From Escherichia coli (lineage in GTDB: Bacteria > Pseudomonadota > Gammaproteobacteria > Enterobacterales > Enterobacteriaceae), in assembly GCF_024700885.2 (NCBI RefSeq), contig NZ_CP117016.1: a stretch of 64,000 nucleotides of DNA; one strand, given 5' to 3'. Shown here piece by piece: positions 12,001 to 15,000 of this stretch (positions are counted from its first letter, which is position 1; each line of letters opens with the position of its first letter). Made by a program: the position numbers.

Positions 12001-15000
12001 CAGATGCATCAAAGCGCCTTGATACGATTTATCAAGCAGCCAAAGCTATGAATAGACTCAATACTGGTAAGCAGTATGCTAGCAGCCTTGTGGATCAGCA
12101 AGTTAATAACTTCCTGAAAGAAAAGGGTAGTCTCGCAAAAATTTATGGAATAGCCTCAAAAGCTGCTGCGGCGGAAGGTATTACAAGCTTATCTGGTCTT
12201 CCTGGTGTAGGTGCAACAGGGGTGATAACGTCAGCATTGATGTCAGGGAAAACAAGCAGGATAAAGGCTGCTGATGCTCTACTGTCTTCTCCTGAGTTTA
12301 AATCAATGCTATTTCGCCTGCAAAACGCACCAGTAGACAGAGCAGAAGTGAGACGCGTAATAGAAAGGAAACTGATGCAATCTGGGGCATTTAAGAGATG
12401 GGAGAAAACCTTATCAACAGATGAAGCAAAAACCATTGCCCGCACGGGGATTATTACATGGCTCGCTAGTGACAGTTAGTCAACTTTGGTTATTTTGCCT
12501 TCTTTTTCTTGATGAACTTTGCATCCATCATCTTTTGATAGCCAAACTAAAAACTTTAAAACCTTAAACACAAGTACGGCTACTGCAATGAAAGCACCAA
12601 TTGCAATTATTGCTAGCGAAATTATTTGCATTGGTGCTTTTAATGCAGGGAAAATAGTGTAAATGATCGCGAAAACAGTAATTATGAGGAACCATCGCTT
12701 CACACCAACCTCCTTAGTTTTGAGCAGGATACCAGATGGTTTGGAGTGAGATAAAGGTTTGTCCACTTTTGGCTATAGCTTTATGTATCCGTGACGGATG
12801 TAATTATCACGGATGCATAAAAATTATATTTTAGTGTAATCTCTGATCGTCTGAATCGTGTAAGAACTCCATGAGACTTTGAACCGGAATTGGTTCTATT
12901 GATGATAATGTGAACACAGGAATATTGAGACTTTTGCAACGCTCAAACACTCCCTTATCATGAGTCCATACCTCGTCAGCATTAATTGCTCTTGCAATTG
13001 CTATTATTTGTCTGTCAAACTTAATTTTGTTTGCTGTACCTTCTGTGCTAATTTTCCTTAATTCTTTTAATGTTGGTATCGATGCGCATTCAATAGCAGC
13101 CAACTCATCAAATGATACAGTTTCGAAGCACGATAACGATTTGATAACATTCAGTTTTTCTTGTTGGTAATCTTTATGGATTCCAACTAAAAACTCCGCC
13201 AATACAGGAGTTGGAACGATGATTGTCCCGTTCTTGTTATCTATTCGATCAACAAGAGCTTCTGCTCTTCTTTTGGCATCTGGAATCTCAGAACCAAGTA
13301 TAGGGTCAGATAATCTATAATCGTGTTCTATATCTGATAGTAGGTATACCAGAATATTGGTATCTAAAATTACTCGCAATTTATCTTCCTCAGAGTCCTA
13401 AGGATTGAATCAACATCGCGTTCCTCGGACCACTGATCTCCAGGAACTTGCTTGATAGCATTAATAGCATCCTTGAGTGATGATTTTTTGAGCAATACAA
13501 ATGAAGTTATTTTTAGTTTCTTTAGCTCCCATTTGTTGTTCTTTTTTTCCCAGCACCCATCTCCTTTAACCCTAATATATTTGAATAGATGGGACCCAAG
13601 AGCTGCCGCCAAATCAGGGGTTGCCTCGCACTTGAATGTTTCACCGTTGGCTCCCTCAATACGCACAGGTATTGAGTTGTCTTTTCCGCCAACACTGTAT
13701 AGCCTTCCTTGAACTTCTGACGTTTTTGTTATGAGTAAAGGGATTGGCTCCTTTTTTACTCGCGGGAATGCGATAATGGTTGAGTGGTTTCGTCCGAGTA
13801 GTTTCGCTGAAAAACCATCATGCTCCAGTAAATTAACAATTTTTTGATACGCGGGTGATTTCTCTTTGGCTGAGAGAGAGGCCCTTGCTATGACAGCGTT
13901 ATAACAAATATCATTATCGACCCATGCATTTAAGTCAGCCGATCCTTCACTTACACAGTCGAAGTGAACAGAATCTGCAGAACCGTATAGATCTACGAGA
14001 GCAGACATATACTTGACCAACTTAGCCATTGACAGCTGGCCAGGGGTGGTTCCGTCAAGTTTTAATGTGAGTCCATTGCTTTTTTTCATTTGTCATCACG
14101 CGAGCCAATATCGATATGGTTAACTGTACGTCATAAGCCTATAACTTACTTTTGCTATAAATATTTTTCAGCGTTTCAAAGACCATCTTCTTAACAACGT
14201 CAGATTGCTCATCCGCGACTCGCTCAGCTTCGTCTCGATGGCCTACAATTGATGATGGCTTTGAGAGAGCATCCTGAACGATTTGTAATAACTCAGAGTT
14301 CATTGACCTTCCGTTAGCCTCTGCTCTTAATTTCAATTTTTCTCTTACTTCCAAAGGCATACGGAAGTTAAAGTGCGGATCGTCTCTAGCCATGCCATCA
14401 CCCCAAGTTAGTGTATTGACATGATAGAAGCACTCTACTATATTCTCAATAGGTCCACCGTGGACCTATATTGTGAGGTAAATATGAAAGGAATGAGCAA
14501 AATGCCGCAGTTCAATTTGCGGTGGCCTAAAGAAGTATTGGATTTGGTGCGCAAGGTAGCTGAAGAGAACGGGCGATCTGTTAACTCTGAGATTTATAAG
14601 CGAGTGATGGACAGCCTGAAGAGAGAGGGGATAACGGTATGAAGTTTATTGAGGTTGATGAGATTGGCTATGAGAATGCACTTGGTAGAGGTAAATCTTT
14701 AGTTAACGTTAATGGCATTGAGTCGATAAGGAGCGGTGAATTTACGGAGATCAGAATGATGTCAGGTGGAATCATTCCTTGCCGTGATTCAGTAGAGTCA
14801 ATCAAAGCAAGAATGAGTGGTCAGTGGCTTTATAACTACAGTGACTTACAAAAACAGTGAAGCCCCAACTGCGGGAACAGTCAGGGCTTCGGGTGTCAGT
14901 AAATCCGTGGAGAAAAACCAACATGAATAGTATAGCAATTTTAGAAGCAGTGAACACCTCTTACGTGCCTTTCAATGGTCAGCAAATTATCACCGCCATG

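What the first reader, a model, noticed from the sequence alone, without database searches (positions are those of the whole stretch)
12787..12815. Operator-like cluster of ACGGAT half-sites between the PIN gene and the small TM gene
Seen in sequence: ATCCGTGACGGATG-taatta-TCACGGATGCAT contains a perfect 13-bp palindrome plus a third copy of the ACGGAT half-site 9 bp away. It lies in the 127-bp gap downstream of the PIN gene and upstream of the TM gene, overlapping promoter-like elements on the minus strand. Inference: a binding site for a dimeric regulator (perhaps the 239-aa protein or a phage repressor) controlling the TM gene, or alternatively a transcription-attenuating hairpin.
Basis: seen in the sequence. 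Interest (0 to 1): 0.3.

Follow-up and report, generated by a model that had tools for sequence, protein, structure and literature searches.

The report
Hairpin-forming repeat after prophage PIN gene
The reported "operator" is the core of a 42-bp hairpin-forming inverted repeat just after a prophage PIN-nuclease gene, where related prophages carry ordinary terminators; it is single-copy and not conserved, so it is more likely an unremarkable RNA stem-loop or a relic than a regulator's binding site.

Summary
The sequence is as described: ATCCGTGACGGAT at 12787-12799, a third ACGGAT at 12809-12814, and a 127-bp gap. As described, it is not beyond chance. Half-site frequency is random, and "6+6 palindrome plus third copy" clusters occur 4 times in the window against 2.3 expected.

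Half-sites 1 and 3 are the core of a longer inverted repeat. Its arms are 12780-12794 and 12807-12821, 14/15 complementary, 12 nt apart. It is the only repeat of that class in the window (0.14 expected). It folds at -17 to -20 kcal/mol (z about -5).

The repeat belongs to the 3' flank of a mobile two-gene module (239-aa OB-fold protein plus PIN) inserted behind mnt in a P22-like E. coli prophage. All 46 copies examined are essentially identical; one variant breaks the stem. Diverged modules lack the repeat and carry canonical terminators at that position, or a plain 57-nt spacer.

The prophage has no second copy. Its Mnt, Arc and 434-type operators are unrelated, and the 239-aa protein has no HTH or RHH fold.

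Best reading (confidence 0.4): an RNA stem-loop at the end of the PIN operon. An operator is not excluded but has no support. Low interest.

The parts
12780..12794 (.). Left arm of the inverted repeat, TTTATGTATCCGTGA.
   Evidence: the repeat finder I1; sequence
12795..12806 (.). 12-nt spacer or loop, CGGATGTAATTA.
12807..12821 (.). Right arm of the inverted repeat, TCACGGATGCATAAA. The only non-Watson-Crick position is T12786 opposite G12815, which is G.U in plus-strand RNA and C.A in minus-strand RNA.
12787..12799 (.). As RNA it is a weak alternative hairpin (-4 to -5 kcal/mol) that competes with the long stem.
12792..12806 (.). TGACGGATGTAATTA, a head-to-tail 15-bp copy (10/15 identical) of the right arm TCACGGATGCATAAA. 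It may be a slippage duplication inside an ancestral 13-1-13 palindrome.
   Evidence: read from the sequence; inner-palindrome probability 0.019; origin by duplication is inferred
12831..13379 (-). PIN-domain gene (182 aa). Its stop codon lies 9 nt upstream of the repeat on the minus strand.
   Evidence: Pfam PF01850 E 4e-10; phrog_21691; weak VapC-family hits
13370..14089 (-). 239-aa gene that overlaps the PIN start by 10 nt. The protein has an OB fold and no Pfam, PADLOC or NCBIfam match.
12476..12703 (-). Small membrane-protein gene (75 aa, start GTG 12703) in the sieA slot. It overlaps the end of the gp16-like gene by 4 nt.
   Evidence: phrog_7294 match to residues 22-96 of the longer ORF; exact 75-aa protein on 897 contigs
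12701..12735 (-). Conserved mosaic junction block, CTGGTATCCTGCTCAAAACTAAGGAGGTTGGTGTG. It holds a TGgTATCCT extended -10-like motif, the SD AAGGAGG and the GTG start. It is shared with P22 sieA, epsilon34 gp14, E212 and at least 5 different small genes. The repeat lies upstream of it, outside the block.
   Evidence: alignments A1 and A3; promoter role is inferred
12828..12855 (-). Weak sigma-70-like site, TTCAGA-16-TAAAAT (9/12); a perfect TATAAT also lies at 12829-12824. A transcript started here would begin at about the first base of the stem.
   Evidence: sequence; no evidence of activity
14139..14393 (-). mnt gene. Pmnt, with intact P22-type Mnt and Arc operators at about 14421-14467, is the likely lysogen promoter for mnt, the 239-aa gene and PIN. 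Only 49 nt separate the mnt stop from the 239-aa start.
   Evidence: P22 annotation; co-transcription is inferred

Best explanation
The three ACGGAT half-sites are pieces of one imperfect 42-bp inverted repeat. Its arms are 12780-12794 and 12807-12821, and an internal 15-bp tandem copy of the right arm creates the 13-bp palindrome.

The repeat is the 3' flank of a mobile two-gene module, a 239-aa OB-fold protein plus a PIN nuclease. The module is inserted behind mnt in the sieA/immI slot of a P22-like E. coli prophage. In a lysogen it is most likely transcribed leftward from Pmnt.

Proposed mechanism: once transcribed, the repeat folds into a stable stem-loop beginning 9 nt after the PIN stop codon. 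There it acts on the RNA, not as a protein-binding operator. It would mark or protect the 3' end of the mnt-239aa-PIN message as a barrier to 3' exonucleases, and perhaps as a pause or partial stop. That would separate the message from the downstream small membrane-protein gene, which carries its own conserved expression block. This is the position where diverged copies of the module have canonical rho-independent terminators.

Shown: the repeat, its predicted stability, its position, its linkage to the PIN module, and its absence from relatives. Inferred: co-transcription from Pmnt and any effect on RNA.
For: - Repeat with 15-nt arms, 93% complementary.
- Unique of its class in the window; 0.14 expected.
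- RNA folds at -17.0 (minus strand) and -20.1 (plus strand) kcal/mol, z of -5.0 and -5.3; 0 of 200 shuffles fold as well.
- Second most stable of 7,720 low-GC windows.
- Position: PIN homologs at 53-76% identity, and the Pantoea and Pseudomonas modules, all have a GC-rich hairpin plus T-run directly after the PIN stop. In P22 the mnt transcript ends at an annotated t_mnt before PsieA.
- Linkage: the 95-bp segment is found only next to PIN (32 of 32 E. coli genomes). It is kept whichever of at least 5 small genes follows.
- The module sits 44-68 nt behind a lysogeny repressor gene in three unrelated prophage types. This fits read-through transcription that needs an end.
Against: - No U-run follows the stem on either strand, and the terminator scan does not call it. 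It is not a canonical intrinsic terminator.
- No covariation test is possible: 45 of 46 copies are identical.
- The one variant (L008, C-to-A in the plus-strand left arm) breaks a core G-C pair with no compensating change.
- The S. salamae module in the same slot does without any such structure, so the element is dispensable.
- The single mismatch is G.U on the plus strand but C.A on the minus strand. That slightly favours the strand opposite to the PIN message.
- No transcript data are available.
Confidence: 0.4

Rival explanations
1. Functionless relic. A short palindrome at a recombination joint, enlarged by a 15-bp slippage duplication, is carried along with a recently spread and nearly clonal cassette. 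It could for example be a decayed terminator that lost its T-run.
For: - All copies are 99-100% identical and restricted to E. coli P22-like prophages.
- The single variant disrupts the stem without compensation.
- The closest diverged module in the same slot lacks the element.
- Head-to-tail 15-bp units are 10/15 identical.
- The segment lies between two mosaic joints, the PIN stop and 12738.
- Window-wide significance is only moderate: 7.5% of shuffles contain such a repeat.
Against: - The composition-corrected fold is extreme (z about -5).
- The position immediately after a stop codon matches where relatives place functional terminators.
- The inner palindrome has about a 2% chance given the outer repeat.
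Confidence: 0.3
2. Operator. A dimeric or tetrameric DNA-binding protein recognises the ATCCGTGA half-sites, two inverted 20 bp centre to centre plus one internal. It thereby controls a promoter for the small membrane gene or blocks read-through.
For: - Symmetric half-sites, three in number, with the outer cores about two helical turns apart.
- The inner palindrome is unlikely by chance given the repeat.
- A weak promoter-like site, and a perfect TATAAT, end 3-7 nt upstream of the repeat. The repeat would therefore cover about +1 to +42 of such a transcript.
Against: - No second site in the window or the rest of the prophage.
- The Mnt, Arc and 434-type operators are present elsewhere and unrelated in sequence.
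- The module encodes no HTH or RHH protein; the 239-aa protein has an OB fold.
- The site is downstream of the module, not at its promoter as in type II toxin-antitoxin autoregulation.
- It is not conserved in relatives.
- It is linked to PIN rather than to the gene it supposedly controls.
- In P22, 85 bp upstream of sieA suffice for function (PMC10883804). The repeat lies 77-118 bp upstream of the start here.
Confidence: 0.15
3. Plus-strand RNA element. The hairpin works on the rightward transcript, that is, late-operon read-through from the gp16-like gene or a short antisense RNA. It would act as a weak terminator or processing site that limits antisense transcription into PIN, the 239-aa gene and mnt.
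For: - The plus-strand fold is the more stable (-20.1 against -17.0 kcal/mol).
- The only mismatch is a G.U wobble on the plus strand and a C.A mismatch on the minus strand.
- A U-rich stretch, AAUUAUAUUUUAG, follows the stem on the plus strand only.
- In P22 the equivalent t_mnt hairpin also closes a plus-strand ORF that starts at the same junction block.
Against: - It is not called by the terminator scan.
- The base of the stem is A-U rich and the U's are interrupted.
- No plus-strand promoter-like site lies nearby.
- Late transcription in P22-like phages is antiterminated (established knowledge), so a weak terminator would matter little.
- The 32-aa plus-strand ORF spanning it was called on only one contig.
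Confidence: 0.1

Closest known systems
t_mnt of phage P22 (terminator ending the mnt-orf59a transcript, upstream of PsieA)
   Same: Same genomic slot and same logic. A hairpin sits after the last gene of the leftward, mnt-driven unit and before the separately expressed sieA-slot gene (sequence).
   Different: t_mnt is a canonical GC-rich hairpin followed by a T-run (AAGCCGGGTCACTCCGGCTTTTTG). The element here has an A-U-rich stem base, a 12-nt loop and no T-run, and is unrelated in sequence.
Intercistronic or 3' stem-loops that stabilise upstream mRNA (REP/BIME-type decay barriers in E. coli operons)
   Same: An imperfect palindrome of about 40 nt, located between genes of one transcription direction, that forms a stable hairpin but is not a terminator.
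   Different: REP elements are multi-copy, with hundreds per genome and a consensus sequence. This sequence is single-copy, one place per genome in 32 of 5,426 genomes, and has no REP consensus.
Palindromic operators of type II toxin-antitoxin systems (e.g. VapB-VapC) and of P22 Mnt and Arc
   Same: Short symmetric half-sites near a PIN (VapC-like) gene in a region full of RHH repressors.
   Different: Those operators overlap the promoter upstream of the operon and are bound by an RHH, AbrB or HTH antitoxin or repressor. Here the site is downstream of PIN, the partner protein has an OB fold, and the Mnt and Arc operators are elsewhere and different.
Lambda sib-type retroregulation (hairpin downstream of int, an RNase III site)
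   Same: A long hairpin just downstream of a prophage gene that could set the fate of the upstream message.
   Different: There is no evidence for RNase III processing. The stem (15-16 bp) is shorter than classic RNase III substrates. This is purely an analogy.

Membership tests
Rho-independent (intrinsic) terminator | Stable stem-loop directly downstream of the last gene of a transcription unit | tested here: met
   The stem starts 9 nt after the PIN stop and folds at -16 to -20 kcal/mol.
Rho-independent (intrinsic) terminator | G+C-rich stem base followed within 0-2 nt by a run of U | tested here: not met
   The scan does not call it on either strand. The stem base is UUUAUG/CAUAAA. On the minus strand it is followed by GCUAUAGCC, and on the plus strand by AAUUAUAUUUU.
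Transcription-factor operator | Dyad-symmetric half-sites | tested here: met
   ATCCGTGA and TCACGGAT are inverted, with an inner ACGGAT as well.
Transcription-factor operator | A cognate double-stranded-DNA-binding regulator encoded nearby or of known matching specificity | tested here: not met
   The 239-aa protein has an OB fold. PIN and the small TM protein have no DNA-binding domain. The Mnt, Arc and 434-type operators differ in sequence. A host factor cannot be excluded.
Transcription-factor operator | Overlap with a promoter, or further sites in the regulon, or conservation with the regulated gene | tested here: not met
   Only a 9/12 promoter-like site abuts it. No other copy exists in the window or the prophage. 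It is absent from S. salamae and the other relatives.
Transcription-factor operator | Protein binding and a regulatory effect | not testable with these tools
   Needs EMSA or footprinting and reporter assays.
REP/BIME repetitive extragenic palindromes | Many dispersed copies per genome sharing a consensus | tested here: not met
   One place per genome, in 32 of 5,426 E. coli genomes, and always beside PIN.
Structured RNA family in Rfam | Match to a curated covariance model | tested here: not met
   Only sar RNA (14856-14922, minus strand) is found in 12300-15000 at E of 1 or less.
Conserved functional RNA structure | Compensatory base changes across homologs | tested here: inconclusive
   46 copies show no variation apart from one uncompensated stem-breaking change. 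Diverged homologs have unrelated sequence.
Terminal inverted repeats of a mobile element | Matching repeat at the other end of the module | tested here: not met
   No related repeat lies between 12690 and 14200 other than the local repeat itself.

The most novel reading that the evidence does not exclude
The 239-aa OB-fold protein plus PIN nuclease is an uncharacterised, prophage-borne, lysogen-expressed toxin-antitoxin-like or anti-phage module. The hairpin at its 3' end would be its cis-acting nucleic-acid ligand. For example, the OB-fold protein might bind the loop or the single-stranded form of the repeat, as RNA or extruded DNA, to set PIN expression or activity.
Probability: 0.04. Interest if true: 0.55.

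Novelty: new member of a known kind. Interest (0 to 1): 0.15.

Why it matters
On its own the element matters little. It is a single-copy stem-loop of uncertain effect in one near-clonal cassette. The useful result is negative and corrective. The "three half-site operator" is better described as one hairpin-forming inverted repeat at a module boundary, and none of the regulators in this prophage plausibly binds it.

The surroundings are more interesting. First, an OB-fold plus PIN gene pair hops between lysogen-expressed positions of P22-like, lambda-like and Pseudomonas prophages and is absent from PADLOC. Second, a roughly 35-bp conserved promoter/SD/start block serves as a universal joint for swapping genes in the sieA slot.

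Tried and rejected
- **Extra motif copies.** I searched the window and the remaining 24 kb of the prophage, using the 13-bp palindrome with up to 2 mismatches and the extended half-sites. Everything was at chance level.
- **Conservation.** I ran megablast and blastn of the cassette and of the 95-bp segment against phages, E. coli genomes and plasmids. I also ran a viral-contig pattern scan and flank-anchored scans of metagenomes and species-representative genomes. Only identical copies turned up, so covariation analysis was impossible. The nine other viral hits were unrelated chance matches.
- **Mnt, Arc or immunity repressor as binder.** Rejected. Their operators are intact elsewhere and unrelated.
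- **239-aa protein as a classical repressor.** Rejected on fold, which is OB.
- **Canonical terminator on either strand.** Rejected.
- **Known RNA family.** None found.
- **Mobile-element end.** No partner repeat.
- **32-aa plus-strand ORF (12736-12834) as the reason for the DGC/HGC-coding repeats.** No support; it was called on only one contig.
- **PADLOC and NCBIfam identification of the module.** No useful hit.
- **tblastn of PIN against sequenced phages.** No match.
- **Literature searches for the module or its accessions.** Nothing found.
- **afdb50 fold library.** Unavailable.

Full report
**Context.** The window carries the right end of a P22-like (Lederbergvirus-type) E. coli prophage.
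- The plus strand holds ejection-protein genes, with the gp16-like gene ending at 12479.
- A leftward block follows: the small membrane-protein gene (12476-12703), PIN (12831-13379), a 239-aa gene (13370-14089) and mnt (14139-14393).
- Rightward arc, a 73-aa ORF, ant and the tailspike gene come next.
- Rfam finds sar RNA at 14856-14922.
- The Mnt operator AGGTCCACGGTGGACCT and the Arc operator ATAGTAGAGTGCTTCTATCAT are the classic P22 sequences (P22 annotation).
- The finding therefore lies in the sieA/immI slot.

**Checking the observation.** The quoted bases are there. ATCCGTGACGGAT is at 12787-12799 and a third ACGGAT is at 12809-12814. The 127-bp gap is right once the small gene starts at GTG 12703, which fits the PHROG 7294 profile and the AAGGAGG 5 nt upstream.

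As described, the motif is not statistically remarkable. The hexamer occurs 28 times against 29.2 expected. Clusters of "6+6 palindrome plus a third copy" occur 4 times in the window against 2.3 in shuffles, and 88% of shuffles have at least one.

**What is really there.** Folding and repeat finding show that half-sites 1 and 3 are the G+C-rich core of a longer inverted repeat, TTTATGtATCCGTGA (12780-12794) and TCACGGATgCATAAA (12807-12821). It is 14/15 complementary with a 12-nt spacer.
- It is the only repeat of that quality in 64 kb. Shuffles give 0.14 on average, and 7.5% have at least one.
- It folds at -17.0 kcal/mol (minus strand) and -20.1 kcal/mol (plus strand) as RNA, with z of -5.0 and -5.3. 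As single-stranded DNA it folds at -10.4 and -11.9 kcal/mol.
- It ranks second among 7,720 low-GC windows.
TGACGGATGTAATTA (12792-12806) is a head-to-tail, 10/15-identical copy of the right arm.
- Given the outer repeat, such an inner palindrome arises in 1.9% of random loops. It is probably not accidental. A 15-bp slippage duplication within an older 13-1-13 palindrome would explain it; that is an inference.
- As RNA the short palindrome hairpin is weak (-4 to -5 kcal/mol) next to the long one (-16 to -19 kcal/mol).

**What the element belongs to.** Mosaic comparison settles this.
- Phages E212 and EC.P3 share the window's sequence only up to 12738. Many E. coli prophages share it only from about 12700 rightward.
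- The overlap is a conserved block, CTGGTATCCTGCnCAAAACTAAGGAGGTTGGTGTG (12735-12701, minus strand). P22 sieA, epsilon34 gp14, E212 and at least five different small genes share it.
- The inverted repeat lies outside that block, on the PIN side. It is kept whichever small gene follows.
- The 95-bp segment 12739-12833 occurs in 32 of 5,426 complete E. coli genomes. It is always 100% identical, always beside PIN and always single-copy. It is absent from the phage and plasmid collections.

**Relatives.** The 239-aa protein and PIN form a conserved, overlapping gene pair that moves between prophages:
- behind mnt in a Salmonella salamae P22-like prophage (72% identity);
- between the tail genes of a Pantoea lambda-like prophage;
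- directly behind the cI-like S24 repressor gene in Pseudomonas prophages.

Downstream of PIN, every diverged copy has something else. Most have a canonical GC-rich hairpin plus T-run (L014, L016-L025, L030-L032). In S. salamae there is a plain 57-nt spacer running straight into AAAACTAAGGAGGTTGGTGTG. None has ACGGAT sites.

So the element is not a conserved part of the module or of the slot. It does occupy the place where relatives terminate transcription. Across 46 near-identical copies (32 genomes, 11 viral contigs, 3 metagenome contigs) there is one variant. L008 breaks a core G-C pair without compensation.

**Testing the operator idea.**
- Neither the window nor the remaining 24 kb of the prophage, taken from the 100%-identical genome NZ_CP117013.1, has another site.
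- The prophage's immunity region carries 434-type operators (ACAAGAAAGTTTGT-like), and the Mnt and Arc operators are unrelated.
- The 239-aa protein was modelled at pLDDT 84.8. It matches OB folds (Stn1, RPA32, the mitochondrial SSB Rim1, and the LysRS anticodon-binding domain) at E of 3e-5 to 1e-3. That is a single-stranded nucleic-acid binding fold, not HTH or RHH.
- The site is downstream of the module, not at its promoter.
- The promoter scan finds only TTCAGA-16-TAAAAT (9/12) ending 7 nt upstream of the repeat.
[quoted passage not shown] The repeat here lies 77-118 bp upstream of the start. The conserved block itself contains an extended -10-like TGgTATCCT, and reading that as a promoter element is an inference.
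- A host factor cannot be excluded, but nothing supports one.

**Most likely mechanism.** Confidence is 0.4. The repeat acts when transcribed. It would be a stable stem-loop just after the PIN stop codon that marks or protects the 3' end of the Pmnt-driven mnt-239aa-PIN message and insulates it from the separately expressed small gene. It stands in for the terminators seen in relatives. It is not a canonical terminator, because no U-run follows it and the scan does not call it.

**Rivals.**
- A functionless relic of recombination and slippage (0.3).
- An operator (0.15).
- A plus-strand element (0.1). This is hinted at by the G.U rather than C.A character of the only mismatch and by the U-rich plus-strand tail.

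**Novelty and interest.** A 3' or intercistronic stem-loop is an ordinary kind of feature, and the evidence for any function is indirect. Interest is low (0.15). The side observations deserve more attention than the palindrome: the OB-fold/PIN module, which is absent from PADLOC and from the literature searched, and the universal junction block of the sieA slot.

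Noticed in passing
window 12831-14089 (-); loci L027-L032: The 239-aa OB-fold protein and the PIN nuclease form a conserved, overlapping two-gene module. It moves between lysogen-expressed positions of unrelated prophages: behind mnt in E. coli and S. salamae P22-likes, among Pantoea lambda-like tail genes, and directly behind the cI-like repressor in Pseudomonas. It has no PADLOC, Pfam or NCBIfam identity for the first gene and no literature. It is a candidate toxin-antitoxin-like or anti-phage system.
   Followed up: partly
window 12701-12738; L026 1787-1822; L001 1503-1537: A roughly 35-bp block, TGGTATCCTGCnCAAAACTAAGGAGGTTGGTGTG, is conserved between unrelated sequences on both sides. 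It precedes P22 sieA, epsilon34 gp14 and at least 5 different small genes. It looks like a mosaic boundary sequence that carries an extended -10-like motif, the SD and the start codon. On the other strand it supplies AGGA plus ATG for a divergent ORF.
   Followed up: partly
L026 (P22-pbi AF527608) 1818-2183 (+): An unannotated 121-aa plus-strand ORF with an HExxH motif (HECAH) starts at the junction-block ATG and ends inside t_mnt, between sieA and orf59a.
   Followed up: no
window 12736-12834 (+): A 32-aa ORF, MVWSEIKVCPLLAIALCIRDGCNYHGCIKIIF, spans the repeat, with AGGA 6 nt before its ATG. The ACGGATG repeats encode DGC and HGC. It was called on one contig only, while PIN is on more than 1,000, so it is probably not a gene.
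   Followed up: partly
L008 (IMGVR_UViG_2698536369_000027), about 3590-3600: This is the only natural variant found in the element. ATCCGTCACGGAT becomes ATCCGTCACTGAT on the PIN-coding strand. The change breaks both the palindrome and the long stem and is uncompensated.
   Followed up: yes
window 14108-14117: A perfect 10-bp palindrome, ATATCGATAT, lies in the 49-nt spacer between the mnt stop and the 239-aa start. AT-rich palindromes of this length are common by chance.
   Followed up: no
window 12893-12927 and 13325-13359: A 35-nt direct repeat (71% identical) lies inside the PIN gene. It encodes NIPVFTLSSIE near the C-terminus and NILVYLLSDIE near the N-terminus.
   Followed up: no
window 14856-14922 (-): A sar antisense RNA (Rfam RF00262, 83.6 bits) is present, together with intact P22-type Mnt and Arc operators at about 14421-14467. 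The immI circuit appears complete.
   Followed up: yes
L052 (NZ_CP117013.1) 14199-14301 and 7163-7318: The prophage's immunity region has 434-type operators (ACAAGAAAGTTTGT-like) between a Cro-like HTH gene and a LexA-family repressor gene. The prophage also carries tRNA-Thr and tRNA-Asn genes upstream of the lysis genes.
   Followed up: no
L002 (E. coli PEC011) 1800-2134: RefSeq annotates no gene between the DNA-transfer protein and PIN. The sequence nonetheless carries the junction block followed by a GTG-AAG-AAA-AAA-TTT small ORF, as in L010 and L013, so a small gene in the sieA slot is probably unannotated.
   Followed up: no
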